Shown: positions 928 to 45,935 of the stretch, piece by piece | How positions within the stretch are numbered: position 1 is the first letter of the stretch | How the letters are laid out: each line of letters starts with the position of its first letter | Source of the DNA: Octopus sinensis | Lineage: Eukaryota | Assembly (NCBI RefSeq): GCF_006345805.1 | Contig: NC_043023.1 | Location: 17,050,001 to 17,114,000 of the forward strand | DNA length: 64,000 nt | Reading direction: 5' to 3' | Position numbers and translations under genes: made by a program | The notes under the pieces: model-generated | What the model saw: the letters and a program-made list of their open reading frames with translations, nothing else | Told to the model about the DNA's origin: nothing | Database searches by the model: none

Positions 928-1281
928 CTTGTTAACAATTAACACGGAAAAAATAAATAAATAAATAAATAGTTACCAGGGAAGCAAAAAATCTCACAGG
1001 TAAAGAGGTTGTAACTCCTTGTTTATAAAGGTAGAAACTTCGTGTTTACGTGGAATTTTTTGTATAATATATAAATAAATAAATGGAGTTTAACGCGGGT
1101 ATAAATTTTACTTTCGACACATATTTCGAAAATTCCACTGATACTATTCAAAATAATAAATGGCAATCTTCTCTGAGTTTCGTTTTTTCACTTTCCTGAA
1201 GAGAAGATTGCATTGTTTTATACCATTTATTCTTTTGAATAGTATCAGTGGAATTTTCGAAACATGTGTCGAAAGTAAAAA
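928..1281. mobile_element. Fold-back element (arms ~1106-1174 and ~1200-1280), probable Penelope-like pLTR remnant
   Basis: ttttactttcgacacatatttcgaaaattccactgatactattcaaaa is inverted as ttttgaatagtatcagtggaattttcgaaacatgtgtcgaaagtaaaa; the right arm holds a hammerhead motif. Penelope origin and the left boundary are inferred. Confidence 0.6.
1190..1276 (+). ncRNA. Type I hammerhead ribozyme motif with long stem II
   Basis: Stem I actttc/gaaagt; core CTGAAGA (1196-1202); stem II gaagattgcattg/cagtggaattttc (12 of 13 pairs incl. GU); GAAA (1259-1262); stem III catgtg; cleavage triplet GUC (1268-1270). Confidence 0.75.
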
Positions 1282-1294
1282 TATTTGTGTGTGC

Positions 1295-1545
1295 GGAGGC
1301 TCGTGGCTTAGTGGTTAGGGTATCAGCATCATGATCGTAAGATTGTGGTTTCGATTCTTAGACCGGGTGACGCGTTGTGTTCTTGAGCAAAATACTTCAT
1401 TTCACGTTGCTCCAGTCCACTCAGTTGGCAAAAATGTGTAACGCTGCGAAGGACTGGCATCCCGTCCAGTTGGGGGGAACACATACGCCATAGAAACCGG
1501 GAAACCGGGCCCATGAGCCTGGCTAGGCTTTAAAAGGGCGCATTT
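1295..1545 (+). mobile_element. tRNA-derived SINE
   Basis: A box tggcttagtgg, B box ggtttcgattc, central tgcgaaggactggcatcccgtccag; diverged relatives at ~3712-3942 (+) and ~54860-54970 (-). Confidence 0.75.
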
Positions 1546-2292
1546 ATTATTTTTATTTTAACAATGTCCGAATGCTGGAGATTATTAGCAGCAGTGACTT
1601 CATCCCAGAATGCAGAAAATGTTACGCCTTCATTTTATCAATAACTTGACGTCTTACTGTATGTGGCTGTACCACACCTCCTCCGACAGCATTGAGTAAA
1701 ACAAAAAAGCATCTATGAAGTTTAAAAGAAAATCAATCAAATAGAAATCTATCGATATATTATAATATCTGAAAGTACTTTTGTTAACCACATGCATAAA
1801 AATTTGTGGCTAGATTTGATTGGTTTATTTGTGAATGTTGTTTGAGAGATGAGGAAGTAGCAAAGCTGATGACTAGACTGGAATCTTTGATATAAAAGCA
1901 TTTTGAGTGCAAAAAAAGGTAACAAAGAAGCCAGACATCAAATTGAAGAATTTGTTTCAGATAAATTTAAATAACTTGGCGACAATTTCAAGAGTTGAAA
2001 GAAAAGCGAATTCAAACTTCAATAAGTTTGGGGGACATTCTTTTAACAACACATCATTTTCGAAGCCGGTATAAAAAGAAATCAACTAGTTTCACAAAAT
2101 CTGTGAAAGTTTCCGAATTTTATTATTCAACTGTCAGATCCGGGATTTAAGAAAATACAATTTGGCCACGTTTATCGAAAACTGGAAAAACGAAAAAGAA
2201 AAAAAAATTATTTAAATCTCAACTAAAATTGAAGTTTACTTGGCAAATCAGCACCAGTCATGATTCTTAAAGGTAAGTGAATTAACGATATT

Positions 2293-2708
2293 GGATCTGT
2301 TCGGTTTGACCGGCAGTTTTTTTAAATAATTTCCACGTAACTAAACACTTTTAAACTTCGTATACTTGTAGAATGTGTTTATAAAACATCTTTTTCTCTT
2401 GGCTTTATTGAGAAAATTCTATAGTTTGTAAGATATTTGTTGTTTTTTTCTTCAACTTCTGCAATTTCAAGCGATCAATGACGTCTATTGAGGTGAAAAC
2501 ATTCTGTGCCGTATGAATATGTCTCTCGTTTAAGAAACAGATTGGGTTTATTTACATTTGTGAAGAAAAAAAGATATCCTTCCCTCCACCCCTAACCCTA
2601 ACCCTAAAACAGATTGAAATGCAATACATCGATACTAGGGTAATAATTATGGGTGACAATTTCATATGACACCGCTAGCAAAAACTGCCGTTCAAACTGA
2701 AAAGATCC
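2293..2708. mobile_element. ~416-bp MITE with ~28-bp GGATC...GATCC TIRs (Merlin-like), unexpanded copy
   Basis: Left TIR ggatctgttcggtttgaccggcagtttttt, right TIR aaaaactgccgttcaaactgaaaagatcc; no clear TSD in this copy, but the other copies have 8-bp TSDs. Confidence 0.8.
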
Positions 2709-3379
2709 CAACACTTAGTACACTACTAAGCCATCCATTACAATATCATGGCATTACCACGACTTTCGAGACGGAAGATACAACAATATGTATCACTCTT
2801 TATATCGGACAACTTTATTTGATCTCTCCATCAAACACCTATGAGTCATCGGTTATTGTAATGAATCCCTGTTGTTCCCCATATTAACATCTACAGGTTC
2901 ATGACTCCCCTGTTTCGTTCCAACCGTCGTCTCACCGTATTCGATGCAGTTCTATGCAGTTGTTCCCTAGACACTGCCTCCAACACGAACAAGCACTCAA
3001 TTTCACTCTTCAAACGTTCAGTCCTCATGAACCCAATCACTATACACTTTTTCTTTAGCATGCACATCATCACCCCCAACACAAATACGCACACATAACA
3101 CTCATATACACACAGACACATAAGTCGACATAGATTCAAATATACATTCATATAAATGGTACATACGTATATACCAGCCACATAAATGCAATCATACCTG
3201 TATACACATCCATACATATAAATTTCAGTAAACAGACACAAGAGCCACAATACATACACAAACATATACGTGCGTGCACACATACTGACACACACGCACT
3301 CACGGCAACATATACACACATACCCAACATATAATACAGCTAACATTCACGCATACACAAGTACATACACACATGTTTA

Positions 3380-3685
3380 CTATTTCTTTACTACCCTCAA
3401 GGGGCCAAACACAGAGAGGGGACAAATAAGGACAGACAAACGGATTAAGAAATACCTATTTCTTTACTACCCTCAAGGGGCTAAACACAGAGAGGACAAA
3501 TAAGGACAGACAAACGGATTAAGTCGATTATATCGACCCCAGTGCGTAACTGGTACTTAATTTATCGACCCCGAAAGGATGAAAGGCAAAGTCGACCTCG
3601 ACGGAATTTGAACTCAGAACGTAACCGCAGACGAAATACTGCTAAGCATTTCGCTCGGCGTGCTAACGATTCTACCAGCTCGCCA
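3380..3685 (-). mobile_element. tRNA-like SINE (ggcgagctggcagaa family) with duplicated 3' tail
   Basis: Reverse complement of ggcgagctgg...gagttcaaattcc...gtcgactttgcctttcatcc...ggggtcgat...gtaaagaaatagg; the ~75-bp tail occurs twice. Same family as 18449-18680, 19060-19290, 34112-34340 and 50488-50703. Confidence 0.8.
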
Positions 3686-4177
3686 TGTTTACGCAACAAT
3701 ATATCCATATGTAGGCGCGTAACGTAGTGGTTAGGACGTTTCACTCATGATCGTAAGATTGCGGTGTCGAATCCTAGACCAGGCGATGCTTTGTGTTCCT
3801 CACCAAAACACTTCATGTCACGTTGCTCCAATTCACGTAGCTAGCAAAAGTGAGAAATCCTACAACAGACCGGCGTCAGGTTCAAATGAAGACTATATAC
3901 GCCACAGAATCCGGGAACGGATTTTATGTGCCTATGGCTAGGAAAAGACCTTTCATCTTTTTCATATTCATATATAGCCCCTGCATACACTAGGTTCAAA
4001 ATAAATTCACGTATGTGCACACACATATGATAAAACTATATACACATACATACTAACACATATATACTGGTTTCACAATATACGCAGTAAATGTACACAT
4101 ATATATATATATGCACGTGCACATAAATACTTTACACAGAATTGCCTCCCGTATTGCTCTTGTACGTTTGAAATCTC

Positions 4178-6955
4178 GGATCTTTTCGTTTTGAACGGCA
4201 GTTTTTTAAAATAATTTCCACGTAACTAAACACTTTTAAACTTCGTATACTGGTAGAATGTGTTTATAAAACATCTTTTTCTCTTGGCTTTATTGAGAAT
4301 ATTCTATAGTTTGTAAGATATTTGGGATCTTTTCGGTTTGACCGGCAGTTTTTTAAAATAATTTCCACGTAACTAAACACTTTTAAACTTCGTATACTGG
4401 TAGAATGTGTTTAAAAACATCTTTTTCTCTTGGCTTTATTGAGAATATTCTATAGTTTGTAAGATATTTGGGATCTTTTCGGTTTGACCGGCAGTTTTTT
4501 AAAATAATTTCCACGTAACTAAACACTTTTAAACTTCGTATACTGGTAGAATGTGTTTATAAAACATCTTTTTCTCTTGGCTTTATTGAGAATATTCTAT
4601 AGTTTGTAAGATATTTGGGATCTTTTCGGTTTGACCGGCAGTTTTTTAAAATAATTTCCACGTAACTAAACACTTTTAAACTTCGTATACTGGTAGAATG
4701 TGTTTATAAAACATCTTTTTCTCTTGGCTTTATTGAGAATATTCTATAGTTTGTAAGATATTTGGGATCTTTTCGGTTTGACCGGCAGTTTTTTAAAATA
4801 ATTTCCACGTAACTAAACACTTTTAAACTTCGTATACTGGTAGAATGTGTTTATAAAACATCTTTTTCTCTTGGCTTTATTGAGAATATTCTATAGTTTG
4901 TAAGATATTTGGGTCTTTTCGGTTTGAACGGCAGTTTTTTAAAATAATTTCCACGTAACTAAACACTTTTAAACTTCGTATACTGGTAGAATGTGTTTAT
5001 GAAACATCTTTTTCTCTTGGCTTTATTGAGAATATTCTATAGTTTGTAAGATATTTGGGATCTTTTCGGTTTGACCGGCAGTTTTTTAAAATAATTTCCA
5101 CGTAACTAAACACTTTTAAACTTCGTATACTAGTAGAATGTGTTTATAAAACATCTTTTTCTCTTGGCTTTATTGAGAATATTCTATAGTTTGTAAGATA
5201 TTTGGGTCTTTTCGGTTTGAACGGCAGTTTTTTAAAATAATTTCCACGTAACTAAACACTTTTAAACTTCGTATACTGGTAGAATGTGTTTATAAAACAT
5301 CTTTTTCTCTTGGCTTTATTGAGAATATTCTATAGTTTGTAAGATATTTGTTGTTGTTTTTTCTTCTTCAATTTCTGCAATTTCAACCAATCACTGACGT
5401 CTGTTGAGGTGAAAACATTCTGTACCGTATGAATATGTCCCTCGTTTAAGAAACAGGGATCTTTTCGGTTTGAACGGCACTAAATACTTTTAAACTTCGT
5501 ATACTGGTAGAATGTGTTTATAAAACATCTTTTTCTCTTGGCTTTATTGAGAATATTCTATAGTTTGTAAGAATTTGGGATCTTTTCGGTTTGACCGGCA
5601 GTTTTTTAAAATAATTTCCACGTAACTAAACACTTTTAAACTTCGTATACTGGTAGAATGTGTTTATAAAACATCTTTTTCTCTTGGCTTTATTGAGAAT
5701 ATTCTATAGTTTGTAAGATATTTGGGATCTTTTCGGTTTGACCGGCAGTTTTTTAAAATAATTTCCACGTAACTAAACACTTTTAACTTCGTATACTGGT
5801 AGAATGTGTTTATAAAACATCTTTTTCTCTTGGCTTTATTGAGAATATTCTATAGTTTGTAAGATATTTGGGATCTTTTCGGTTTGACCGGCAGTTTTTT
5901 AAAATAATTTCCACGTAACTAAACACTTTTAAACTTCGTATACTGGTAGAATGTGTTTATAAAACATCTTTTTCTCTTGGCTTTATTGAGATATTCTATA
6001 GTTTGTAAGATATTTGGGTCTTTTCGGTTTGAACGGCAGTTTTTTAAAATAATTTCCACGTAACTAAACACTTTTAAACTTCGTATACTGGTAGAATGTG
6101 TTTATAAAACATCTTTTTCTCTTGGCTTTATTGAGAATATTCTATAGTTTGTAAGATATTTGGGATCTTTTCGGTTTGACCGGCAGTTTTTTAAAATAAT
6201 TTCCACGTAACTAAACACTTTTAAACTTCGTATACTAGTAGAATGTGTTTATAAAACATCTTTTTCTCTTGGCTTTATTGAGAATATTCTATAGTTTGTA
6301 AGATATTTGGGTCTTTTCGGTTTGACCGGCAGTTTTTTAAAATAATTTCCACGTAACTAAACACTTTTAAACTTCGTATACTGGTAGAATGTGTTTATAA
6401 AACATCTTTTTCTCTGGCTTTATTGAGAATATTCTATAGTTTGTAAGATATTTGTTGTTGTTTTTTCTTCTTCAATTTCTGCAATTTCAACCAATCACTG
6501 ACGTCTGTTGAGGTGAAAACATTCTGTACCGTATGAATATGTCCCTCGTTTAAGAAACAGGGATCTTTTCGGTTTGAACGGCACTAAATACTTTTAAACT
6601 TCGTATACTGGTAGAATGTGTTTATAAAACATCTTTTTCTCTTGGCTTTATTGAGAAAATTCTATAGTTTGTAACATATTTGTTGTTGTTTTTTTCTTCA
6701 ACTTCTGCAATTTCAAGCGATCAATGACGTCTATTGAGGTGAAAACATTCTGTGCCGTATGAATATGTCCCTCGTTTAAGAAACAGATTGAGTTTATTTA
6801 CATTTCTGAAGAAAAAAAGATATCCTTCCCTCCACCCCTAACCCTAACCCTAAAACATATTGAAATGCAATAGATCGATACTAGGGTCATAATTATGGGT
6901 GACAATTTCATATGACACCGCTAGAAAAAACTGCTGTGCAAAACCGAAAAGATCC
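4178..6955 (+). mobile_element. Merlin-like MITE expanded into a tandem array of ~147-bp units (plus ~250-bp units)
   Basis: Flanked by 8-bp TSD gaaatctc (4170-4177)/gaaatccc (6956-6963). About 16 copies of the left TIR plus adjacent sequence, with a single right TIR at the end. Confidence 0.85.
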
Positions 6956-12039: not shown

Positions 12040-12233
12040 TTAAGCTTGGATAAACTTTACAAAAGAGTTGACAGTTTTCACCTGTTGATTTAGGTATGAA
12101 GTAAGATCACAAATGAAAGAAGCATAGCATTAAATTATTCTCTGAAAATAGTGATCCAACTTCATACAAACATATTCATAGAAATGAAAAAATCATTATC
12201 ATTGTGATACGTATAATTAATTATTCTCTCATA

Positions 12234-13040
12234 ATGGATAATATAATTGAACCAAAAAACCCTGATACCAGAGATAAGCCACATTCCTGCGATATCTGTG
12301 GTAAGTCATTCTCTCATAGTACTAACTTAACTAGACACAAGCGTACACATACAGGTGAAAAGCCATACCATTGCGATATCTGTGGTAAATCATTCCCTGA
12401 AGCTGGTCAGTTGAAAACACACAAACGTATGCATACAGGTGAAAAGCCGTATCATTGTAATATCTGTGGTAAATCATTTGTTTCTGTTAGTCATGTCACT
12501 AATCACAAACGTATTCATACAGGTGAGAAGCCATATCATTGTGATACCTGTGGTAAATCATTCACACAAAACAGTCATTTGACTAAACCCAAACTTATTC
12601 ATACAGGTGAGAAGCCACATCACTGTGGTATTTGCGGAAAATCATTCTCTCGTTATGATAAATTGAATCCTCACAAACGCACTCATACAGGTGAGAAGCC
12701 TCATCATTGTGATATCTGTGATAAATCATTCTCTGAAAGTAGCCTCTTGACTCGTCACATACGAATTCATACAGGTGAGAAACCATATCAATGTGATATC
12801 TGTGGTACATCATTCTCTCAAAATGGTTATTTCGCTAAGCACAAACGCATTCATACAGGAGAGAAGCCATATCATTGTGATATCTGTGGTAAATCATTTT
12901 CTCAAAATAGCACTTTAACTAGTCACAAATGCATTCATACAGGTGAGAAGCCATATACCTGTGATATCTGTGGTAAATCATTCTCTCAACTGAGTGCCTT
13001 AAATAAACACAAACAGACACATACAGGTGAAAAGCCATAA
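12234..13040 (+). CDS. C2H2 (Kruppel-type) zinc-finger protein, 9 tandem fingers, 268 aa
   Basis: ATG at 12234; nine CxxC-x12-HxxxH units with TGEKP linkers; finger 4 has the first His replaced by Pro (LTKPKLIH); stop directly after the last TGEKP. No effector domain is visible. Confidence 0.88.
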   Translation: MDNIIEPKNPDTRDKPHSCDICGKSFSHSTNLTRHKRTHTGEKPYHCDICGKSFPEAGQLKTHKRMHTGEKPYHCNICGKSFVSVSHVTNHKRIHTGEKPYHCDTCGKSFTQNSHLTKPKLIHTGEKPHHCGICGKSFSRYDKLNPHKRTHTGEKPHHCDICDKSFSESSLLTRHIRIHTGEKPYQCDICGTSFSQNGYFAKHKRIHTGEKPYHCDICGKSFSQNSTLTSHKCIHTGEKPYTCDICGKSFSQLSALNKHKQTHTGEKP

Positions 13041-13769: not shown

Positions 13770-16700
13770 GGATCTTTTCTGTTTGAACGGCAGTTTTTTC
13801 TAGGGGTGTCATATGAAATTGTCACCCATAATTATGACCCTAGTATCGATCTATTGCATTTCAATCTGTCTCAGGGTTAGTGGTGGGGGGAAGGGTATCT
13901 TTTTTTTTTCTTCAGAAATGTAAATAAAACTCAATCTGTTTCTTAAACGAGGAACATATTCATACGGCACAGAATGTTTTCACCTCAATAGACGTCACTG
14001 ATTGGTTGAAATTGCAGAAATTGAAGAAAAAAAACAACAAATATCTTACAAACTATAGAATTTTCTCAATAAAGCCAAGAGAAAAAGATGTTTTATAAAC
14101 ACATTCTACCAGTATACGAAGTTTAAAAGTGTTTAGTTACGTGGAAATTATTTTAAAAAACTGCCGTTCAAACCGAGAAGACCCAAATATCTTACAAACT
14201 ATAGGATTTTCTCAATAAAGCCAAGAGAAAAAGATGTTTTATAAACACATTCTACCAGTATACGAAGTTTAAAAGTGTTTAGTTACGTGGAAATTATTTT
14301 AAAAAACTGCCGTTCAAACCGAAAAGACCCAAATATCTTATAAACTATAGGATTTTCTCAATAAAGCCAAGAGAAAAAGATGTTTTATAAACACATTCTA
14401 CCAGTATACGAAGTTTAAAAGTGTTTAGTTACGTGGAAATTATTTTAAAAAGCTGCCGTTCAAACCGAAAAGACCCAAATATCTTACAAACTATAGAATT
14501 TTCTCAATAAAGCCAAGAGAAAAAGATGTCTTATAAACATATTCTACCAGTAATCGAAGTTTAAAAGTGTTTAGTTACGTGGAAATTATTTTAAAAAACT
14601 GCCGTTCAAACCGAAAAGACTCAAATATCTTACAAACTATAGAATATTCTCAATAAAACCAAGAGAAAAAGATGTTTTATAAACATATTCTACCAGTAAT
14701 CGAAGTTTAAAAGTGTTTAGTTACGTGGAAATTATTTTAAAAAGCTGCCGTTCAAACCGAAAAGACCCAAATATCTTACAAACTATAGAATTTTCTCAAT
14801 AAAGCCAAGAGAAAAAGATGTTTTATAAACATATTCTACCAGTGATCGAAGTTTAAAAGTGTTTAGTTACGTGGAAATTATTTTAAAAAACTGCCGTTCA
14901 AACCGAAAAGACCCAAATATCTTACAAACTATAGAATTTTCTCAATAAAGCCAAGAGAAAAAGATGTTTTATAAACATATTCTACCAGTAATCGAAGTTT
15001 AAAAGTGTTTAGTTACGTGGAAATTATTTTAAAAAGCTGCCGTTCAAACCGAAAAGACCCAAATATCTTACAAACTATAGAATTTTCTCATAAAGCCAAG
15101 AGAAAAAGATGTTTTATAAACATATTCTACCAGTGATCGAAGTTTAAAAGTGTTTAGTTACGTGGAAATTATTTTAAAAAACTGCCGTTCAAACCGAAAA
15201 GACCAAATATCTTACAAACTATAGAATTTTCACAATAAAGCCAAGAGAAAAAGATGTTTTATAAACATATTCTACCAGTATCGAAGTTTAAAAGTGTTTA
15301 GTTACGTGGAAATTATTTTAAAAAACTGCCGTTCAAACCGAGAAGACCCAAATATCTTACAAACTATAGAATTTTCTCAATAAAGCCAAGAGAAAAAGAT
15401 GTTTTATAAACATATTCTACCAGTAATCGAAGTTTAAAAGTGTTTAGTTACGTGGAAATTATTTTAAAAAACTGCCGTTCAAACCGAAAAGATCCCAAAT
15501 ATCTTACAACTATAGAATTTTCTCAATAAAGCCAAGAGAAAAAGATGTTTTATAAACATATTCTACCAGTATCGAAGTTTAAAAGTGTTTAGTTACGTGG
15601 AAATTATTTTAAAAAACTGCCGTTCAAACCGAAAAGATCCCTGTTTCATAAACGAGGGACATATTCATACGGCACACAATGAATTTTTACCTCAATAGAC
15701 GTCATTGATTGGTTGAAATTGCAGAAATTGAAGAAAAAAAACAACAAATATCTTACAAACTATAGAATTTTCTCAATAAAGCCAAGAGAAAAAGATGTTT
15801 TATAAACAAATTCTACCAGTATACGAAGTTTAAATGTGTTAGTTACGTGGAAATTATTTTAAAAAACTGCCGTTCAAACCGAAAAGATCCCTGTTCATAA
15901 ACGAGGGACATATTCATACGGCCACAATGCATTTTTACCTCAATAGACGTCATTGATTGGTTGAAATTGCAGAAATTGAAGAAAAAAAACAACAAATATC
16001 TTACAAACTATAGAATTTTCTCAATAAAGCCAAGAGAAAAAGATGTTTTATAAACAAATTCTACCAGTATACGAAGTTTAAATGTGTTAGTTACGTGGAA
16101 ATTATTTTAAAAAACTGCCGTTCAAACCGAAAAGATCCCTGTTTCATAAACGAGGGACATATTCATACGGCACACAATGCATTTTTACCTCAATAGACGT
16201 CATTGATTGGTTGAAATTGCAGAAATTGAAGAAAAAAAAACAACAAATATCTTACAAACTATAGAATTTTCTCAATAAAGCCAAGAGAAAAAGATGTTTT
16301 ATAAACAAATTCTACCAGTATACGAAGTTTAAATGTGTTAGTTACGTGGAAATTATTTTAAAAAACTGCCGTTCAAACCGAAAAGATCCCTGTTTCATAA
16401 ACGAGGGACATATTCATACGGCACACAATGCATTTTTACCTCAATAGACGTCATTGATTGGTTGAAATTGCAGAAATTGAAGAAAAAAAACAACAAATAT
16501 CTTACAAACTATAGAATTTTCTCAATAAAGCCAAGAGAAAAAGATGTTTTATAAACAAATTCTACCAGTATACGAAGTTTAAATGTGTTTAGTTACGTGG
16601 AAATATTTTAAAAAACTGCCGTTCAAACCGAAAAGATCCCTGTTTCATAAACAAGGGACATATTCATACGGCACACAATGCATTTTTACCTCAATAGACG

Positions 16701-17389
16701 TCATTGATTGTTGAAATTGCAGAAATTGAAGAAAAAAAACAACAAATATCTTACAAACTATAGAATTTTCTCAATAAAGCCAAGAGAAAAAGATGTTTTA
16801 TAAACAAATTCTACCAGTATACGAAGTTTAAATGTGTTTAGTTACGTGGAAATTATTTTAAAAAACTGCCGTTCAAACCGAAAAGATCCCTGTTCATAAA
16901 CGAGGGACATATTCATACGGCACACAATGCATTTTTACCTCAATAGACGTCATTGATTGGTTGAAATTGCAGAAATTGAAGAAAAAAAACAACAAATATC
17001 TTACAAACTATAGAATTTTCTCAATAAAGCCAAGAGAAAAAGATGTTTTATAAACAAATTCTACCAGTATACGAAGTTTAAATGTGTTTAGTTACGTGGA
17101 AATATTTTAAAAAACTGCCGTTCAAACCGAAAAGATCCCTGTTTCATAAACAAGGGACATATTCATACGGCACACAATGCATTTTTACCTCAATAGACGT
17201 CATTGATTGGTTGAAATTGCAGAAATTGAGAAAAAAAAAAAACAAATATCTTACAAACTATAGAATTTTCTCAATAAAGCCAAGAGAAAAAGATGTTTTA
17301 TAAACACATTCTACCAGTATACGAAGTTTAAATGTGTTTAGTTACGTGGAAATTATTTTAAAAAACTACCGTTCAAACCGAAAAGATCC
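13770..17389 (-). mobile_element. Merlin-like MITE expanded into ~11 x 146-bp plus ~7 x 250-bp tandem units
   Basis: Perfect 8-bp TSD ctattttg (13762-13769 and 17390-17397); orientation opposite to 4178-6955; same unit junctions. Confidence 0.88.
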
Positions 17390-17657
17390 CTATTTTGTCT
17401 GCTAAAAGACAATTTTTTTCCCTTCAACTTCAATATCGTCAATGTGAATCTGAAATTTGTCATTATCTGTAAAAATATTGACTCTGAGATAACTTCATCA
17501 CTGAAAATGCCTGCAGTTGGATTTTGAGGAATTTGTCAAAAAAGAATAATGAATGAAATGTTAAACTGTAACCATTCTGTGTTTGTTTTGTTACTCTGTA
17601 TCTAGACTCTGTCCCTTCTATCCCTTAAATCTCTCAACTGGTACAGTTACACCCCTT

Positions 17658-26700: not shown

Positions 26701-29700
26701 GACCACGACTCATAGATCCGCCACTCCCAGAACACATGACAACGACCCATTGATCCGCCTACTACCAGCACACATGACCACGACTCATAGATCCGCCCCC
26801 TCCAGAAACACATGACAACGACCCATTGATCCGCCTACTACCAGAACACATGTCCACGACTCATAGATCCGTCTACTACCAGAACACATGACCACGACTC
26901 ATAGATCCGCCCACTCCCAGAACACATGACAACGACCCATAGATCCGCCTACTACCAGAACACATGACCACGACTCATAGATCCGCCCACTCCCAGAACA
27001 CATGACAACGACCCATAGATCCGCCTACTACCAGAACACATGACCACGACTCATAGATCCGCCCACTCCCAGAACACATGACAACGACCCATTGATCCGC
27101 CTACTACCAGCACACATGACCACGACTCTTAGATCCGCCTACTAACAGAACACATGACCACGACTCATAGATCCGCCCACTCCAAGAACACATGACAACG
27201 ACCCATTGATCCGCCTACTACCAGACACATGACCACGACTCATAGATCCGCCTACTACCAGAACACATGACCACGACTCATAGATCCGCCCCACTCCCAG
27301 AACACATGACCACGACTCATAGATCCGCCCACTCCCAGAACAGATGACAACGACCATTGATCCGCCTACTACCAGCACACATGACCACGACTCATAGATC
27401 CGCCCACTCCCAGAACACATGACAACGACCCATTGATCCGCCTACTACCAAACACATGACCACGACTCATAGATCCGCCCCACTCCCAGAACACATGACC
27501 ACGACTCATAGATCCGCCCACTCTCCCAGAACACATGAGAACGACCCATTGATCCGCCTACTACCAGAACACATGACCACGACTCATAGATCCGCCTACT
27601 ACCAGAACACATGACAACGACTCATAGATCCGCCCACTCCCATAACACATGACAACGACCCATAGATCCGCCTACTACCAGAACACATGACCACGACTCA
27701 TAGATCCGCCTACTACCAAACACATGACAACGACCCATAGATCCGCCTACTACCAGAACACATGACCACGACTCATAGATCCGCCCACTCCCAGAACACA
27801 TGACAACGACCCATAGATCCGCCTACTACCAGCACACATGACCACGACTCATAGATCCGCCCACTCCCAGAACACATGACAACGACCCATTGATCCGCCT
27901 ACTACCAGAACACATGACCACGATTCAGATCCGCCTACTACCAGAACACATGACCACGACTCATAGATCCGCCCACTCCCAGAACACATGACAACGACCC
28001 ATTGATCCGCCTACTGCCAGAACACATGACCACGACACATAGATCCGCCTACTACCAGCACACATGACCACGACTCATAGATCCGCCCACTCCCAGAACA
28101 CATGACCACGACTCATAGATCCGCCCACTCCCAGAACACATGACAACGACCCATTGATCCGCCTACTACCAGCACACATGACCACGACTCATAGATCCGC
28201 CCACTCCCAGAACACATGACAACGACCCATAGATCCGCCTACTACCAGCACACATGACCACGACTCATAGATCCCACTCCCAGAACACATGACAACGACC
28301 CATTGATCCGCCTACTACCAGAACACATGACCACGACTCATAGATCCGCCTACTACCAGAACACATGACAACGACTCATAGATCCGCCCACTCCCAGAAC
28401 ACATGACAACGACCCATAGATCCGCCTACTACCAGAACACATGACCACGACTCATAGATCCGCCTACTACCAGAGCACATGACCACGACTCATAGATCCG
28501 CCCACTCCCAGAAACATGACCACGACTCATAGATCCGCCCACTCCCAGAACACATGACAACAACCCATTGATCCGCCTACTACCAGCACACATGACCACG
28601 ACTCATAGATCCGCCCACTCCCAGAACACATGACAACGACCCATTGATCCGCCTACTACCAGCACACATGACCACGACTCATAGATCCGCCCCCTCCCAG
28701 AACACATGACAACGACCCATTGATCCGCCTACTACCAGAACACATGTCCACGACTCATAGATCCGTCTACTACCAGAACACATGACCACGACTCACGATC
28801 ATAGTCGCCCACTCCCAGAACACATGACAACGACCCATAGATCCGCCTACTACCAGAACACATGACCACGACTCATAGATCCGCCCACTCCCAGAACACA
28901 TGACAACGACCCATAGATCCGCCTACTACCAGAACACATGACCACGACTCATAGATCCGCCCACTCCCAGAACACATGACAACGACCCATTGATCCGCCT
29001 ACTACCAGCACACATGACCACGACTCTTAGATCCGCCTACTAACAGAACACATGACCACGACTCATAGATCCGCCCACTCCAAGAACACATGACAACGAC
29101 CCATTGATCCGCCTACTACCAGAAACAATGACCACGACTCATAGATCCGCCTACTACCAGAACATGACCACGACTCATAGATCCGCCCACTCCCAGAACA
29201 CATGACCACGACTCATAGATCCCCCACTCCAGAACACATGACAACGACCCATTGATCCGCCTACTACCAGCACACATGACCACGACTCATAGATCCGCCC
29301 ACTCCCAGAACACATGACAACGACCCATTGATCCGCCTACTACCAGAACACATGACCACGACTCATAGATCCGCCCACTCCCAGAACACATGACCACGAC
29401 TCATAGATCCGCCCACTCCCAGAACACATGACAACGACCCATCTATCCGCCCACTCCCAGAACACATGACAACGACTCATAGATCCGCCTACTACCAGAA
29501 CACATGACCACGACTCATAGATACGCCTACTACCAGAACACATGACCACGACTCATAGATCCGCCCACTCCCAGAACACATGACCACGACTCATAGATCC
29601 GCCCACTCCCAGAACACATGACAACGACCCATAGATCCGCCTACTACCAGAACACATGACCACGACTCATAGATCCGCCTACTACCAGAACACATGACAA

Positions 29701-32700
29701 TGACCCATAGATCCGCCTACTACCGAAACACATGACCACGACTCATAGATCCGCCCACTCCCAGAACACATGACAACGACCCATAGATCCGCCTACTACC
29801 CGAACACATGACCACGACTCATAGATCCGCCCACTCCAGAACACATGACAACGACCCATAGATCCGCCTACTACCAGAACACATGACAACGACCCATTGA
29901 TCCGCCTACTACCAGAACACATGACAACGACCCATTGATCCGCCTACTACCAGCACACATGACCACGACTCATAGATCCGCCCCCTCCCAGAACACATGA
30001 CAACGACCCATTGATCCGCCTACTACCAGAACACATGTCCACGACTCATAGATCCGTCTACTACCAGAACACATGACCACGACTCATAGATCCGCCCACT
30101 CCCAGAACACATGAACGACCCATAGATCCGACTACTACCAGAACACATGACCACGACTCATAGATCCGCCCACTCCCAGAACACATGACACGACCCATAG
30201 ATCCGCCTACTACCAGAACACATGACCACGACTCATAGATCCGCCCACTCCCAGAACACATGACAACGACCCATTGATCCGCCTACTACCAGCACACATG
30301 ACCACGACTCTTAGATCCGCCTACTAACAGAACACATGACCACGACTCATAGATCCGCCCACTCCAAGAACACATGACAACGACCCATTGATCCGCCTAC
30401 TACCAGAACACATGACCACGACTCATAGATCCGCCTACTACCAGAACACATGACCACGACTCATAGATCCGCCCACTCCCAGAACACATGACCACGACTC
30501 ATAGATCCGCCCACTCCCAGAACACATGACAACGACCCATTGATCCGCCTACTACCAGCACACATGACCACGACTCATAGATCCGCCCACTCCCAGAACA
30601 CATGACAACGACCCATTGATCCGCCTACTACCAGAACACATGACCACGACTCATAGATCCGCCCACTCCCAGAACACATGACCACGACTCATAGATCCGC
30701 CCACTCCCAGAACACATGACAACGACCCATCTATCCGCCCACTCCCAGAACACATGACAACGACTCATAGATCCGCCTACTACCAGAACACATGACCACG
30801 ACTCATAGATACGCCTACTACCAGAACACATGACCACGACTCATAGATCCGCCCACTCCCAGAACACATGACCACGACTCATAGATCCGCCCACTCCCAG
30901 AACACATGACAACGACCCATAGATCCGCCTACTACCAGAACACATGACCACGACTCATAGATCCGCCTACTACCAGAACACATGACAATGACCCATAGAT
31001 CCGCCTACTACCAGAACACATGACCACGACTCATAGATCCGCCCACTCCCAGAACACATGACAACGACCCATAGATCCGCCTACTACCCGAACACATGAC
31101 CACGACTCATAGATCCGCCCACTCCCAGAACACATGACAACGACCCATAGATCCGCCTACTACCAGAACACATGACAACGACCCATTGATCCGCCTACTA
31201 CCAGAACACATGACAACGACCCATTGATCCGCTACTACCAGAACACATGACCACGACTCATAGATCCGCCCACTCCCAGAACACATGACCACGACTCATA
31301 GATACGCCCACTCCCAGAACACATGACAACGACCCATTGATCCGCCTACTACCAGCACACATGACCACGACTCATAGATCCGCCCACTCCCAGAAAACAT
31401 GACAACGACCCATTGATCGCCCCTACTACCAGAACACATGACCACGACTCATAGATCCGCCCACTCCCAGAACACATGACCACGACTCATAGATCCGCCC
31501 ACTCCCAGAACACATGACAACGACCCATTGATCCGCCTACTACCAGAACACATAACCACGACTCATAGATCCGCCCACTCCCAGAACACATGACCACGAC
31601 TCATAGATCCGCCCACTCCAGAACACATGACAACGACCCATTGATCCGCCTACTACCAGCACACATGACCACGACGCATAGATCCGCCCACTCCCAGAAC
31701 ACATGACCACGACTCATAGATCCGCCCACTCCCAGAACACATGACAACGACCCATTGATCCGCCTACTACCAGAACACATGACAACGACCCATTGATCCG
31801 CCTACTACCAGCACAAACTACCACGACTCATAGATCCGCCCACTCCCAGAACACATGACCACGACTCATAGATCCGCCCACTCCCAGAACACATGACAAC
31901 GACCCATTGATCCGCCTACTACCAGAACACATGACCACGACTCATAGATCCGCCCACTCCCAGAACACATGACCACGACTCATAGATCCGCCCACTCCCA
32001 GAACACATGACAGCGACCCATTGATCCGCCTACTACCAGCACACATGACCACGACTCATAGATCCGCCCACTCCCAGAACACATGACCACGACTCATAGA
32101 TCCGCCCACTCCCAGAACACATGACAACGACCCATTGATCCGCCCACTCCCAGAACACATGAAAACGACTCATAGATCCGCCTACTACCAGAACACATGA
32201 CCACGACTCATAGATCCGCCTACTACCAGAACACATGACCACGACTCATAGATCAGCCCACTCCCAGAACACATGACCACGACTCATAGATCCGCCCACT
32301 CCCAGAACACATGACAACGACCCATAGATCCGCCTACTACCAGAACACATGACCACGACTCATAGATCCGCCCACTCCCAGAACACATGACAACGACCCA
32401 TAGATCCGCCCACTCCCAGAACACATGACAACGACCCATTGATCCGCCTACTACCAGAACACATGACAACGACCCATTGATCCGCCTACTACCAGAACAC
32501 ATGACAACGACCCATAGATCCGCCTACTACCAGAACACATGACCACGACCCATAGATCCGCCTACTACCAGAACACATGACAACGACCCATTGATCCGCC
32601 TACAACCAGAACACATGACAACGACCCATTGATCCGCCTACTACCAGAACACATGACAACGACCCATAGATCCGCCTACTACCAGAACACTTGACCACGC

Positions 32701-33353
32701 CCCATAGATCCGCCTACTACCAGAACACATGACAACGACCCATTGATCCGCCTACTACCAGAACACATGACAACGACCCATAGATCCGCCTACTACCAGA
32801 ACACATGACAACGACCCATTGATCCGCCTACTACCAGAACACATGACCACGACTCATAGATCCGCCCACTCCCAGAACACATGACCACGACTCATAGATC
32901 CGCCCACTCCCAGAACACATGACAACGACCCATTGATCCGCCCACTCCCAGAACACATGACAACGACTCATAGATCCGCCTACTACCAGAACACATGACC
33001 ACGACTCATAGATCCGCCCACTCCCAGAACACATGACCACGACTCATAGATCCGCCCAGTCCCAGAACACATGACAACGACCCATAGATCCGCCTACTAC
33101 CAGAACACATGACCACGACTCATAGATCCGCCCACTCCCAGAACACATGACAACGACCCATAGATCCGCCTACTACCAGAACACATGACCACGACCCATA
33201 GATCCGCCTACTACCAGAACACATGACCACGACCCATAGATCCGCCTACTACCAGAACACATGACAACGAGCCATTGATCCGCCTACTACCAGAACACAT
33301 GACAACGACCCATTGATCCGCCTACTACCAGAACACATGACAATGACCCATAG
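20773..33353. repeat. 38-bp satellite array (~330 monomers, at least 12.6 kb) with 76-bp dimer and kb-scale higher-order structure
   Basis: Monomer agaacacatgac(c/a)acgac(t/c)cat(a/t)gatccgcc(cactccc/tactacc). Confidence 0.97.
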
Positions 33354-37301: not shown

Positions 37302-38081
37302 TATATATATATATATAATTATATATATATATATATTATATATATATATATATATACACGAGGTCTGATCAATAAGTATACGGATTGTTCCGAGAGGGAA
37401 TAAGCTGAAGCATGCTGGGTAAAACCGCTTGGCAAAAAGTGGTTGGGACTCTGTTGTGCAAGAGCGCTATGTTTTAACGTTCTAGCTCATTTCTGCGGTT
37501 TACAGCAGTGCCTGGAAGGAAGGTGAGTAGCGTGTTATCGCCGCATTGACCATGACAGGGAAAGTTGGTTATGCGTGCAAATTAAGACGTGCTTTGTATT
37601 TTTCAATGAAAAAAGTTTCTTTATTCTAAATCGTTTAAATAAAGAACCTTTTTTCATTGAAAAACACAAAACACGTCTAAAAATGCACGCTTAACCAACC
37701 TTTATCTTTTTACATATTTCAATTCACGATTATATCACTGTACATAAATCCCCTTACTAAACAAGGTTTTTGAAACTTGTGTGTGTCTGTACACGTATAC
37801 ATATTTCCCCTCCCATTACCGAAAGCTGAACAGTTATCTCCCTTACTCACAACAATAACAATAGTAACGACAACCAATTACCTCCCTTTATATATCTACC
37901 TGTGAAGTCATTCACTCATGAATATCATTACTCACATCATGCACAAAATTACTTCTTAAGAAAAAATAAAAATTCAAATACAGAAAACATAATATCATGA
38001 ATAGCGATAGCGAAACTGGTCGATATATTAAAAATTATATTAAAACTATGTAAGTGTGCGTATTGTCCTTTTTTAATTTCT

Positions 38082-38386: not shown

Positions 38387-38447
<61 letters not shown>

Positions 38448-38483: not shown

Positions 38484-38695
38484 CGAGGTCTGATCAATAA
38501 GTATCCGGATTGTTCCGAGAGGGAATAAGCTGAAGCATGCTGGGTAAAACTGCTTGGCAAAAAGTGGCTTGGGACTCTGTTATGCAAGAGCGCTAAGTTT
38601 TTATATTCTAACTCATTTCTGCTGTTTACAGCAGTGCTTGGAAGGAAGGTGAGTAGCGTGTGATCGTCGCATTGACCATGACAGGGAAAGTTGGT
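38484..38695 (+). mobile_element. Mariner-like left-end remnant (also at 37359 and 39631)
   Basis: TA followed by cgaggtctgatcaataagtatccgga, resembling mariner TIRs; no partner TIR found. Confidence 0.5.
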
Positions 38696-39218
38696 TAAGC
38701 GTGCATATTAAGACATGCTTTGTTTTTTTCAATGAAAAAAGTTTCTTTATTCTAAATCGTTTAAATAAACAACCTTTTTTCGTTGAAAAATACAAAACAC
38801 GTCTAAATATGCACGCTTAACGAACTTTTATCTTTTTACATATTTCAATTCACGATTACATCACGGTACATAACACCCCTTACTAAACAAGGTTTTTGAA
38901 AATTGTGTGCGTCTGTACACGTATACATATTCCCCCCCCCATTACCGAAAGCTGAACAGTTATCTCCCTTACTCACAACAATAACAATAATAACGACAAC
39001 CAGTTACCTCCCTTTATATATCTACTTGTAAGGCATTCACTCGTGAATTTCATTACTCACAACATGAACAAATTTTCTTCTTAAGAAAAAATAAAAATTC
39101 AAATACAGAAAACATAATATCATGAATAGCGATAGCGAAACTGGTCGATATATTAAAAATTATATTAAAAGTATGTAAGTGTGCGTATTTTCCATTTTTA
39201 ATTTCCTATATATATGTG

Positions 39219-39277
<59 letters not shown>

Positions 39278-40361
39278 CATATAACTATCTCCTTTAGTAG
39301 TAGCTCCAAAGAAATCAAATTAATTTATTACTCTTCTGTACCGATTATCTTCCCCGTACATTTATTTGTGTGTGTCTTTATGTATGTATGTATGTATGTA
39401 TGTATGTATGTATGTATGTATGTATGTATGTATATATGTATCCTATCAAAACCTTTAGCCGAACCGCTAGGTTACGGGGACATAAACACTGCAGCATCGG
39501 TTGTCAAGCAGGCGATTTGGGGGGTACAGACACAGACACAAAAGCATACACACGCACACACACACATATATATGTATATATATATATATATATAATATAT
39601 ATAATATATATATATATATGTATATATATACGAGGTCTGATCAATAAGTATCCGGATTGTTCCGAGAGGGAATAAGCTGAAGCATGCTGGGTAAAACCGC
39701 TTGGCAAAAAGTGGCCTGGGACTCTTTTGTGCAAGAGCGTTAAGTCTTAGGGCTCTAGCTCATTTCTGCTGTTTACAGCAGTGCTTGGAAGGAAGATGTG
39801 TAGCGTGTGATCGTCGCATTGACCACGACAGAGAAAGTTGGTTATGCGTGCAAATTAAGACGTGCTTTGTATTTTTCAATGAAAAAAGTTTCTTTATTCT
39901 AAATCGTTTAAATAAAGAACCATTTTTCATTGAAAAATACAAAACACGTCTAAATATAAATAACCAACTTTTATCTTTTTACATATTTCAATTCACGATT
40001 ACATCACTGTACATAAATCCCCTTACTAAACAAGGTTTTTGAAAATTGTGTATGTCTGTACACGTATACATATTTCCCCTCCCATTACCGAAAGCTGAAC
40101 AGTTATCTCCCTTACTCACAACAATAACAATAATAACGACAACGAGTTACGTCCCTTTATATATCTACTTGTGAAGTCATTCACTCGTGAATTTCATTAC
40201 TCACATCATTGACAAAATTTCTTCTTAAGAAAAAATTCAAAATTCAAATAAGGAAAATTTAATATCATGAATAGCGATAGCGTGACTGGTCGATATATTA
40301 CAAATTATATTAAAACTATGTAAGTGTGCGTATTTTCCTTTTTTAATTTCTTATATATATA

Positions 40362-41469: not shown

Positions 41470-41505
<36 letters not shown>

Positions 41506-41645: not shown

Positions 41646-42117
41646 TATATATATTACTCTTTTCTCTTTACTCTTTTACTTGTTTCAGTCATTTGACTGC
41701 GGGAATGATGGAGCACCGCTTTTAGTCGAGCAAATCGACCCCGGGACTTATTCTTTGTAAGCCCAGTACTTATTCTATCAGTCTCTTTTGTCGACCGGGA
41801 CGTAAACACACCAGCATCGGTTGTCAAGCAATGCTAGGGGTCAAACACAGACACACAATCACACACACACATACATACATATACATATATATATAATTAT
41901 ATATATATTATATATATATATAATAATAATAATAATAAATATTAGGGAATAAATCCAAATTTACAGGGAAAAATCAGATTAAGGACTGAATCCAATTTTA
42001 TAGTAAAATATTATATAATATTAATTAGAGACAAAACCACTATTATGCAAATCAAACAAAGAAAGACTTAATCCAATACATAAAAAAATTTATATAAATT
42101 AAATAAAATTAAATTCG

Positions 42118-42163
42118 CCACTACAATTGTTTCGTGTCTCTTCTAAGGACATTCATCAGGTGG
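42118..42163 (-). ncRNA. Minimal type I hammerhead ribozyme motif
   Basis: Reverse complement reads ccac CTGATGA atgtccttagaagagacac GAAA caattg TA gtgg. Confidence 0.8.
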
Positions 42164-42212
42164 TATTCAGATCTTCTATTCAATTTCAAGTTATGAATAG
42201 AAGATCTGAATA

Positions 42213-42258
42213 CCACCTGATGAATGTCCTCAGAAGAGACACGAAACAATTGTAGTGG
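42213..42258 (+). ncRNA. Minimal type I hammerhead ribozyme motif
   Basis: Stem I ccac/gtgg; CTGATGA 42217-42223; stem II tgtc/gaca; GAAA 42243-42246; palindromic stem III acaattgt; GUA triplet 42252-42254. Confidence 0.82.
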
Positions 42259-42361
42259 CGAATTTAATTTGTTTAATTTATATAATTTTTTTATGTATGG
42301 ATAAGTCTTTCTTTGTTTGATTTGCATAATAGTGGTTTTGTCTCTAATTAATATAATATTA

Positions 42362-42416
<55 letters not shown>

Positions 42417-42596: not shown

Positions 42597-42681
<85 letters not shown>

Positions 42682-43277
42682 GTGTGCGCGCGTGTGTCTG
42701 GGACGGGATTCTTTCAGTTTTCGTCAATCATACATACATTCGCAAGGGTTTTGTCGGCTCAGATTTAAACTAAATTGCCCCTGCCGCTGGTGCCACGCAG
42801 TGGGACAGAACCCAGAGCTATGTGGTTGGAAAGGAAACCTCTTACTCTATAGGAAGACCTGCACCTAAAATCAGTGCCATTCCTGTGACGGGAATGGAAC
42901 CCGTGGCGCCTGGTTGATATTCAGGAATCCTAACTTCTATATCCTTAAATATTACTCATTATCTGAAACATAACTATTTTTACACTGGTAGAAAATCAGG
43001 ATTTTTCTTAAGCAAAGATATAAGATTGAATCGATGTTACTCAATATTCGTTTTCTCATTTCGTTAAAAACGAAAGTGAAAGTCGAATCGAGATTAGATA
43101 GTAGCATTTTAATTCGAGAGACGTTCATTGATTCTCTCATTCACAGCTCTTTGTCTATAAATGATTTCTTTTATGGACGTAAGGAACATACGAGACACAC
43201 AGACGAACTACAATATCCGCCACGCTGGGATTCTAAAGAGAATGTAAAGGGACGTGACTGAATACTAAAGATATTTT

Positions 43278-43937: not shown

Positions 43938-44416
43938 ATTCTTATATTATTAATTCACTACCTTCAAGGTTCATGACTGTTACAGGGTTGTTAAGTAAAT
44001 TTCACTTCTAGTTGCAAAACCGACCAACCAAACGTGTCTCACTGCAAACAATAAGCTTCTGCCTTTTAATGTTTCCTTTTCCTAGTCTCGATAAACAAGC
44101 TTTGTTATATTTATTCCTATTCTCTTCGTTCTGATAATTTCAGAATAAATTCAGGATATTTCACAGTTTATTTCTTCGCTGGCTAACTTGAACTTTCTTT
44201 CCCTCTTACTCCAGAAGTCGTCGCCAGGTAATTTCACTTTTCGTTAAATAAGTTCTTAAATTCAAGGTCTTATATTCATTTGTCTTTCTCTCCAGAATGC
44301 TTTGCTCTTCAGAAGGTAAGTAAATTATCAGTTTTACCCGTAGCTTTGTTAGGTTATCAACAGCAACTGTTACTATCCATCGATCTTAGCAATTAAACCG
44401 CTTGAAAGAAGTTTAC

Positions 44417-44870
44417 TGCGTTTGTATGCAAGGTAATCGAAACGATTTTATATTAACTTGGCAATATATCGATAGCTTTAAATTTTTAATTATGCACTAG
44501 ATAAATTACACTTAATGCCCTCGAAAAAAAACAGTGGTCAACGATTACATGAAGAGAATCCATATCTTCTTGAAATGAAGCCTTGCTTTGGATTGTATTT
44601 TGATTTAAAGTAAACGTTGTCTAGATACCAAACTGAGAAATTTAAAAAATCTGTAAAACTTTCATTAAAATATATATATAAACATGTCTACATATGCAAC
44701 TATATCCTTTAGAAGACATACATAAAGTAAAACATACAAATCTACACATATACATAAAAATATACCCTGATGTTGAAATTCCAATCAAGGACTCATGAAT
44801 CTAGGTTAGAAACCAGCTCTTTCTCTATAGGCAAGAGATCTTGAAATAAAACTGAACAATGAAATTCATA
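44417..44870. repeat. ~450-bp segment duplicated at 52856-53326
   Basis: Both run from gcgtttgtatgcaaggtaatcgaaacg to ttgaaataaaac(t/a)gaacaatga and are followed by (TACA)n. Confidence 0.85.
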
Positions 44871-45125
44871 CATACATACATACTTACATACATACACACA
44901 TATAAACATACACAAATACTTACATACATAAACATATATACATACATACATATAGATACATTACATAATGCATATATTTATACATAAATAATATATATAC
45001 ATACATACATACATACATATATACATACATACATACATATGTACATACATACATACGTGAATATATATATACATACATACATATAAATACATACATACAT
45101 AACATACATAGATATATATAATATA

Positions 45126-45514
45126 CTAGCAGTATCGCCCGGCGTTGCTCGGGTTTGTAAGGGAAATAATTATATAAAGCATTTTTAGAGATGTAAAGTA
45201 TAATAGCCATCTCAATATGGCTAACCACAAAGGGGGAGGGGGTGTTACTGTAGCTTTTTACGTTCTGAGATTAATAATAAATTTTAGAGAGTTACTTCCC
45301 TATATATGTCAAAAATGGATTAAAAATGGGAAAAATTGATGTAAATTTTTTTTTAAATCGTAGACTCATCGTAGACGCGCGCTAATACCCAGACGGTCTC
45401 GATATGATCACGACTATAAGATACCCGGTTGGGTTAAACTGCACCGCAAAATGGGGGAGTTAGGAATCTAAATCGTAGGAGACAGACACACAACCTCACT
45501 TTTATATATAAAGA
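45126..45514 (-). mobile_element. Non-autonomous Helitron
   Basis: Reverse complement of 11581-11982, with TC start, hairpin and CTAG end. Confidence 0.85.
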
Positions 45515-45576
45515 TTTCCTCTATTTACATAATATTGAGGTCTCTTTCTTCTTTTGTTATCTTACTGTTTTTACCA

Positions 45577-45607
<31 letters not shown>

Positions 45608-45617
45608 AATATATATA

Positions 45618-45935
45618 GTTACAGAGATGTACTTGCATAGCAAGTGACTTGATCTGAGATCGTGTGCTGGAACGAAACAGTTGCAGCGTTGAAGGTGTTT
45701 ATAAGCCATTTAAGAAACACACAAAACCGTTAGATTCACTTCAACATTAAATTTAATTTGTCAAAATATTTTCATCGCTTTGAGACCGCGACCTGTTAGC
45801 ACGATATTTTGTCAGTGAACAGGTCGCGGTCTCAAAGCGACGAAAATATTTTGGCAAATTAAATTTAAATGTTGAAGTGAATGTAACGGTTTTTGTGTGG
45901 TTCTTAAATGGCTTACAAACACCTTCCACGCTGCA
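45618..45935. mobile_element. Fold-back element (arms 45682-45797 and 45818-45935) in (TA)n
   Basis: ~115-bp inverted repeat, tgcagcgttgaaggtgttt... versus ...aaacaccttccacgctgca. Confidence 0.75.
45808..45858 (+). ncRNA. Candidate variant type I hammerhead (G3-C8 core)
   Basis: Stem I tttgtca/tggcaaa; core GTGAACA; one extra g; stem II gtcgc/gcgac; GAAA 45842-45845; palindromic aatatt; UUU triplet. Confidence 0.55.

What the first reader, a model, noticed from the sequence alone, without database searches (positions are those of the whole stretch)
928..45935. Three unrelated ribozyme fold-back families share one architecture within 45 kb
Seen: at 1.1, 42.1 and 45.8 kb, sequence-unrelated elements share one layout: a longer arm, a shorter inverted arm, a hammerhead fold next to the symmetry axis reading outward, and a position in or beside AT-rich microsatellite. 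Inference: a diverse, high-density class of short ORF-less ribozyme elements (Penelope pLTR derivatives or retrozyme-like) that targets TA repeats. The long hairpins would also be substrates for ADAR editing, which is known to be extensive in coleoid cephalopods.
Basis: inference. Interest (0 to 1): 0.75.

Follow-up and report, generated by a model that had tools for sequence, protein, structure and literature searches.

The report
Penelope stumps: one spliced, one Helitron-borne
The three mirror-image repeats with a hammerhead RNA motif are real but are likely the known folded-back stumps of Penelope-type jumping genes; one is an intron-less copy of its element's front end, which points to spliced messenger RNA as the likely copying template, and one sits inside an unrelated Helitron-like DNA element that likely carried it here.

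Summary
Observation confirmed: a relaxed type I hammerhead scan gives 4 hits in the window, all at the three fold-backs (30 shuffles, mean 0.2). They are not a new element class. A is the 5'-truncated 3' end of an RT + GIY-YIG Penelope-like element (PLE). B belongs to a Hydra-clade PLE whose near-full copy I found; the window copy joins a 27-nt first exon to the hammerhead exon without the ~1.1-kb GT-AG intron (exact junctions genome-wide: 140 intron-less, 53 intron-retaining). C is an ORF-less ~210-nt family with a G3-C8 core; no coding partner found; the window copy is a passenger in a 2.0-kb Helitron-like element (542 exact junction hits). Junctions vary per insertion, and fold-backs mostly pair one long-ended with one short-ended arm. 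Inverted pLTRs, tails, (TA)n targets and opposed hammerheads are in print for PLEs. What goes beyond: frequent spliced copies, against the published antisense-template idea. Cleavage, expression and ADAR editing are untested. The scan noted spliced leaders, twin copying and G3-C8 before, on other DNA of this genome.

The parts
914..1163 (-). Element A long arm: 3' end (pLTR plus ~150-nt tail) of a Hydra-like PLE, 5'-truncated inside the hammerhead
1175..1287 (+). Element A short arm; reaches 47 nt further 5' than the long arm; cut at 1288 by a SINE-like insert
1190..1276 (+). Minimal type I hammerhead of A (core 1196-1202, long helix II, palindromic helix III, predicted cut after 1270)
41929..42197 (-). 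Element B long arm: exon 1 remnant joined to exon 2 (junction 42173|42172), hammerhead, ~80-nt tail
42194..42364 (+). Element B short arm, also intron-less (junction 42203|42204), ends at the family's short 3' end, then (TA)n
42122..42159 (-). [quoted passage not shown]
42217..42254 (+). Hammerhead core to cleavage triplet, B short arm
45619..45797 (-). Element C long arm with ~60-nt tail, 5'-truncated inside the hammerhead core
45798..45935 (+). Element C short arm, starts near the family's fixed 5' end
45815..45851 (+). Variant hammerhead of C: G3-C8 core, UUU triplet, 2-bp palindromic helix III
45126..47139 (-). 2.0-kb non-coding Helitron-like element (5' TC, 3' hairpin + CTAG, between A and T) that carries element C as cargo

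Best explanation
The three fold-backs are likely the head-to-head stumps left when Penelope-like retroelements insert: A is the truncated 3' end of a protein-coding element, B is an intron-less copy of such an element's front end, and C is a short non-coding family whose window copy lies inside a Helitron-like element. Shown: ORF links for A and B, the exon junction in B, variable junctions, long-plus-short arm pairing, the carrier of C. Inferred: the RT/GIY-YIG protein nicks both strands of an AT-rich target and starts reverse transcription at two internal sites of a sense RNA, one per strand; the two cDNAs run towards the RNA's 5' end, stop at random (A) or at the transcription start (B, C), and are joined head-to-head. 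The hammerhead sits next to the axis because it lies 15-60 nt from that 5' end or truncation point, not because the hairpin is a functional unit. The hammerheads are predicted to be weak, dimer- or protein-assisted motifs of the parent RNA and are masked in the fold-back.
For: A: L092 = inverted pLTR + RT(YRDD)/GIY-YIG ORF + pLTR, both ends in (TA)n; Pfam GIY-YIG E=4.5e-4, below cut-off. B: L303 = inverted pLTR, acceptor + hammerhead, ATG, 826 codons with one stop, RIKW, DKT, YRDD, CxCx5C, CxxC, CxH, then donor, intron, exon 1, donor, acceptor, hammerhead. The 27-nt leader is followed by GT and ~1.1 kb ending TTTTTAG in L215, L220, L235; a second donor after the ORF is joined to the same acceptor in 3 of 25 endonuclease loci. 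Position-ordered B sample, 30 hits = 24 insertions (merged by hand): 13 exon-1-spliced, 1 spliced from the second donor, 6 unspliced, 4 undetermined; genome-wide 140 vs 53 exact junctions; the same exon-2 variants occur in both classes, so the intron was lost repeatedly. 22 of 23 copies with the tip share nothing upstream; the tip is the A of an initiator-like TCACTTC (Inr consensus recalled). Inverted partner: A at least 17/26, B 15/24, C 11/24 free insertions; long+short pairs 15/17, 14/15, 8/11; short arm reaching >=8 nt further 5' than the long arm in 9/11 adjacent A pairs and 5/11 C fold-backs, and in window A and C (hand tallies). B arms differ 2.2% within and 4.2% between 16 loci. C carrier: CTAG end in 29/29 loci, other end found in 25/29, flanks differ; 542 exact junction hits. 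PAc cleaves and extends both strands and has two RT start sites that delimit the tail (PMC11167929).
Against: No coding partner for C in 113 loci examined; no donor or acceptor form found for it, so its PLE origin rests on architecture, two fixed 3' ends and target duplications in only 2-3 of 9 single copies. Non-nested arms can also arise by later deletion across a palindrome centre; in B only 1 of 15 insertions is non-nested by >=8 nt and the window B copy is nested. Only 15 of 32 B arms have their partner as nearest neighbour, and 46 single-arm against 29 both-arm variants. Tails are ~60-150 nt, longer than the published 30-40 bp. A lacks the CxCx5C linker. The 140:53 counts use patterns of 18 and 20 nt and count fold-backs twice. 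No RNA-level evidence for splicing, start site or cleavage.
Confidence: 0.8

Rival explanations
1. Same PLE origin, but the inversion is made by self-priming or template switching of one cDNA, the tail by endonuclease resolution, and non-nested arms by later deletion at the palindrome centre.
For: Microhomology and short fillers at junctions; window B is nested with a 4-nt overlap; self-priming and EN-resolution are the published proposals (PMC3846280; PMC8557442).
Against: Short arms end at the same site as solo short copies; non-nested arms are the majority in adjacent A pairs (9/11), several with no overlap at all; the published version needs an antisense template, which cannot yield spliced copies.
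Confidence: 0.3
2. Short B and C are self-propagating SINE-like non-autonomous PLEs: the short copies are themselves transcribed and recopied by a PLE enzyme in trans.
For: C: 2,847 exact hits of one 27-mer, 406 with the exact 5' tip, 30/30 of those without shared upstream sequence and no partner found; subfamily variants exist.
Against: For B the same variants are in intron-retaining masters, so short masters are not needed; C's partner may be rare or missed by 30-locus samples.
Confidence: 0.35
3. One reading: a distinct retrozyme-like class in which the fold-back with its ribozyme is the mobile unit, replicating through cleaved or circular RNA.
For: C fold-back has an identical junction in 30/30 top hits and 542 exact hits.
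Against: Those copies share 2 kb of flank and Helitron-like ends; free copies have different junctions; 5' ends do not lie at the cleavage site; no head-to-tail arrays of monomers in the samples; the hairpin masks the ribozyme.
Confidence: 0.05

Closest known systems
Hydra clade of C-terminal-endonuclease PLEs, incl. Hydra-1_Obim (Craig et al. 2021, PMC8557442; passages, section 11 and supplement search hits seen)
   Same: RWK-type and DKT motifs, C-terminal GIY-YIG, CxCX5C linker (B), CxxC and CxH, hammerhead, (TA)n targets, inverted 5'-truncated copy, tail at one end.
   Different: A and B are not Hydra-1_Obim (protein stretches and listed hammerhead differ, by eye); A lacks the linker; tails 60-150 nt; B has a ~1.1-kb leader intron that is absent from most copies.
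[quoted passage not shown]
   Same: Short helix I, palindromic helix III, extra nucleotide after position 9, many families per genome, pairs 100-700 bp apart on opposite strands, intron end next to helix I in D. virilis.
   Different: That paper reports U3-A8, not G3-C8; C also has a UUU site. G3-C8 seen in print only as a partly active double mutant (PMC11167929); PMC3088659 passages name U3-A8.
Penelope of D. virilis and Adineta Penelope elements (PMC2377424 passages; PMC3846280 passages and Discussion)
   Same: 5'-UTR intron just downstream of the start site in the pLTR; head-to-head inverted pLTRs; initiator-like TCACT.
   Different: Described as retaining the intron on transposition, with an antisense or unspliced template proposed; family B has more intron-less than intron-retaining junctions.
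PAc Poseidon element of Anolis (Frangieh et al. 2024, PMC11167929; parts 1-2 of 4 read)
   Same: Two internal RT start sites delimiting the tail; both strands cut and extended; AT-rich targets; protein-assisted hammerhead not needed for insertion.
   Different: Different clade; B's two ends lie in the 5' UTR about 60 and 140 nt before the ATG, not inside the ORF.
Non-LTR retrozymes (bioRxiv 10.64898/2026.07.22.740005, part 1 of 5 read)
   Same: Non-coding, type I hammerhead, related to PLE pLTRs.
   Different: Defined by tandem head-to-tail units; these copies are single or head-to-head.
Canonical non-autonomous Helitron (PMC8969392 passages)
   Same: 5' TC, 3' hairpin and CTAG, insertion between A and T, captured cargo.
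   Different: Cargo includes a PLE fold-back with a hammerhead; no Rep/helicase partner was sought.

Membership tests
EN+ PLE (A, B) | Single ORF with RT and C-terminal GIY-YIG linked to the pLTR | tested here: met
   L092, L302, L303; Pfam GIY-YIG hit below curated cut-off; no RT profile hit in Pfam, RT called from motifs and likeness to the Hydra alignment text
EN+ PLE (A, B) | pLTR with adjacent inverted 5'-truncated copy and one-sided tail | tested here: met
EN+ PLE (A, B, C) | Minimal type I hammerhead in the pLTR | tested here: met
   fold only; cleavage untested
EN+ PLE (B) | Intron retained in genomic copies | tested here: not met
   retained in 6 and lost in 14 of 24 insertions; 53 vs 140 junctions. 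A described habit of PLEs, not the phylogenetic definition
Hydra clade (B) | RWK, DKT, CxCX5C linker, CxxC and CxH, (TA)n insertion | tested here: met
   RIKW 41, DKT 128, CxCx5C 678, CxxC 784, CxH 813; 40/40 ends at TA
Hydra clade (A) | RWK, DKT, CxCX5C linker, CxxC and CxH | tested here: inconclusive
   RIRW, DKT, CxxC present; CxH seen in L092; linker absent; 48-50% identical to B
Hydra clade (A, B) | Placement in an RT phylogeny with reference PLEs | not tested
   reference proteins were seen only as supplement text
EN+ PLE (C) | Link to an RT/GIY-YIG ORF | tested here: inconclusive
   none in 113 loci; one unlinked endonuclease fragment near L279
EN+ PLE (C) | Two fixed 3' ends, head-to-head inversions, target duplications | tested here: met
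   9-12 bp duplications in 3 of 9 single full copies, one of them simple TA
Non-LTR retrozyme | Tandem head-to-tail units each with a hammerhead | tested here: not met
   none in 90 position-ordered hits
Non-LTR retrozyme | Circular or cleavage-defined monomer RNAs | not testable with these tools
   only assembled contigs were offered
Canonical Helitron (carrier of C) | 5' TC, 3' hairpin + CTRR, insertion between A and T, no duplication | tested here: met
   CTAG end 29/29; other end found 25/29, of which 18 end GA|T and 3 abut a second copy head-to-tail
Canonical Helitron (carrier of C) | Autonomous Rep/helicase partner | not tested
   not searched

The most novel reading that the evidence does not exclude
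Penelope-like elements routinely copy spliced sense mRNA, twice per insertion, from two internal start sites on the two nicked target strands; this makes the asymmetric head-to-head fold-backs, contradicts the antisense-template explanation of intron retention, and seeds thousands of promoter-proximal ribozyme stubs, one family with a working natural G3-C8/UUU hammerhead that a Helitron has spread as a fixed hairpin to over 500 sites.
Probability: 0.45. Interest if true: 0.7.

Novelty: new variant of a known kind. Interest (0 to 1): 0.5.

Why it matters
The shared layout is ordinary PLE insertion anatomy, so the 'new class' falls. Family B, however, offers a natural test of an open question: which RNA a PLE copies and why PLEs keep introns. 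Intron-less copies from two different donors can only come from sense RNA, and one-long-one-short arm pairs link the genome pattern to the two RT start sites measured in vitro. C supplies a natural G3-C8 hammerhead family to assay, and shows that an identical fold-back in hundreds of places can be Helitron cargo rather than a replicating hairpin.

Tried and rejected
Rfam scan: no hammerhead among listed rows, only miRNA-like hits to hairpins and microsatellites. PDB sequence search with the A ORF: nothing meaningful. Pfam: no RT hit. Fold-back as inherited unit: first suggested by C, rejected once the shared 2-kb carrier was seen. B as a partnerless mini-element: my reading, rejected. Neptune assignment (recalled motifs): replaced by Hydra after reading the published motifs. 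Splice forms or partner for C: four junction guesses gave 45 hits (30 examined), 0, 3 and 25 hits (20 examined), none with shared upstream sequence other than inverted arms. Sequencing runs: no RNA holder listed; contigs only. Contigs laid on C show 2-3 A>G places against 5-10 G>A, which in a multi-copy family says nothing on editing. Extra 5' G as a cap trace: confounded by inverted arms in B, not seen in C. One protein comparison used the wrong frame and was redone. Literature: searches listed no report of spliced PLE genomic copies, of natural G3-C8 cores or of these families; Arkhipova 2003, Repbase and Dfam were not seen and may hold them.
Full report
Observation. A relaxed type I hammerhead descriptor found 4 hits in the 64-kb window, all in these elements, against a mean of 0.2 in 30 local shuffles. 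The three share no DNA similarity at E<0.01. Each folds as one long hairpin that masks the motif. All are repeat families in the 2.72-Gb own genome: exact pattern hits 616 (A), 133 (B), 2,847 (C); these are lower bounds.

Element A. Most relatives are not short fold-backs but run upstream for variable lengths into a coding body. L092 has the textbook layout: inverted pLTR, 5'-truncated RT (YRDD) and GIY-YIG ORF, 3' UTR, hammerhead, tail, with (TA)n at both ends. Fold-back junctions differ between copies. A is the most truncated form of an autonomous PLE.

Element B. Short copies have a fixed 5' tip: 22 of 23 copies carrying it share nothing upstream. In L215, L220 and L235 the same 27-nt leader is followed by a GT donor and about 1.1 kb ending in a pyrimidine tract and AG, 13 nt before the hammerhead core. 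Both arms of the window copy carry the leader joined directly to that acceptor. L303 is a near-full element: inverted pLTR, acceptor and hammerhead, ATG, 826 codons with one stop, then 3' UTR, a second donor, exon 1 with its donor, acceptor and hammerhead. Its motifs match the published Hydra clade; it is not Hydra-1_Obim by eye. The second donor is joined to the same acceptor in 3 of 25 endonuclease loci. In a position-ordered sample of 30 hits, merged by hand to 24 insertions, 13 are exon-1-spliced, 1 spliced from the second donor, 6 unspliced, 4 undetermined; one hit that the script called unspliced (L223) is an inverted-arm junction. Genome-wide exact junctions: 140 intron-less, 53 intron-retaining (unequal pattern lengths, fold-backs counted twice). 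The same exon-2 variants occur in both classes, which argues for repeated copying of spliced RNA. RNA-level splicing and the start site remain untested.

Element C. The top 29 relatives share the junction and about 2 kb of flank. The shared unit, 45126-47139, has on the minus strand a 5' TC, a 3' hairpin and CTAG and sits between A and T, the canonical Helitron signature; its junction has 542 exact hits. Free copies are about 210 nt, with a fixed tip (406 exact hits; 30 of 30 without shared upstream sequence), two 3' ends and variable inversions. G3 and C8 are present in 22 of 23 free hits with a readable core (hand count), so the swap is a family trait. The UUU site and 2-bp helix III make strong cleavage doubtful (inference). 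No coding partner was found in 113 loci.

Architecture. Hand tallies: inverted partner in at least 17 of 26 A, 15 of 24 B and 11 of 24 free C insertions; one long-ended plus one short-ended arm in 15 of 17, 14 of 15 and 8 of 11. The short arm reaches at least 8 nt further 5' than the long arm in 9 of 11 adjacent A pairs, 5 of 11 C fold-backs, 1 of 15 B, and in window A and C; such arms each hold sequence the other lacks. The idea of testing two separate cDNAs came from earlier notes of this scan. Later deletion at the centre could mimic the pattern. B arms differ 2.2% within and 4.2% between 16 loci, but only 15 of 32 arms are nearest to their partner. 3' ends next to (TA)>=3: A 28/37, B 40/40, C 15/35, background 81/1000, 77/1000, 76/960 (duplicates imperfectly merged).

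Mechanism. Shown: ORF links, exon junction, variable junctions, arm pairing, carrier. Inferred: the PLE protein nicks both strands of an AT-rich site and starts at two internal RNA sites, as measured for PAc; two sense-templated cDNAs are joined head-to-head. The hammerhead is near the axis because it is near the RNA's 5' end or the truncation point.

Comparison. Inverted 5'-truncated copies, tails and microsatellite bias, opposed minimal hammerheads 100-700 bp apart and a 5'-UTR intron beside the hammerhead are in print. Intron retention is described as a PLE habit, with an antisense or unspliced template proposed; spliced copies cannot come from an antisense template. Searches listed no report of spliced PLE copies or natural G3-C8 cores; Arkhipova 2003, Repbase and Dfam were not seen. 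A 2026 octopus repeat annotation lists 31 recently active Penelope-like families and does not mention hammerheads in its main text. Earlier unreviewed notes of this scan reached the spliced-leader, twin-copy and G3-C8 readings on other DNA of this genome; sequence look-ups of B and C returned none.

Verdict. Observation confirmed; class claim not supported; PLE origin shown for A and B, likely for C. Interest 0.5, carried by the spliced copies and the arm pairing. ADAR editing and cleavage are open.

Noticed in passing
window 45126-47139: The Helitron-like carrier also holds an inner, older TC-type start near 45516, a SINE-like piece (~45990-46230) and short tandem repeats: a nested cargo chain. 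Some copies are head-to-tail (L070, L072, L087).
   Followed up: partly
window 1-2790; L032 (G000:C27:16965457-16968822), L033: The start of the window with element A is duplicated at 100% identity about 84 kb upstream and on another contig: recent segmental duplication or assembly duplicate.
   Followed up: no
window 4178-6786 and 14038-17395: Arrays of 146-250-bp units in opposite orientation on either side of a C2H2 zinc-finger ORF.
   Followed up: no
window ~12050-13040: 307-codon C2H2 zinc-finger reading frame.
   Followed up: no
window 20773-33353: 12.6-kb array of a 38-bp unit, 331 copies.
   Followed up: no
window 37561-37702, 38687-38828, 39834-39957: Three direct copies about 1.1 kb apart of an imperfect 140-bp palindrome without a hammerhead hit.
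   Followed up: partly
L091 (G000:C1:89638500-89646000): Fold-back of family A with 3.3-kb arms that include flanking DNA at 98.5% identity.
   Followed up: no
L303 (G000:C11:54119000-54128500, minus): The intron region of family B is internally repeated; one exon-1 copy is followed by TTAGGG-type repeats instead of the donor; both A and B ORFs have asparagine-rich linkers like those described in rotifer PLEs.
   Followed up: no
L101 / L112 (G000:C16:31973125-31973410): About 60 nt of unrelated sequence between the two arms of a B fold-back.
   Followed up: no
runs X1, X3, X7, X16: Contigs of two coded organisms show the same fixed 5' tip of family C as loose-end consensus.
   Followed up: partly
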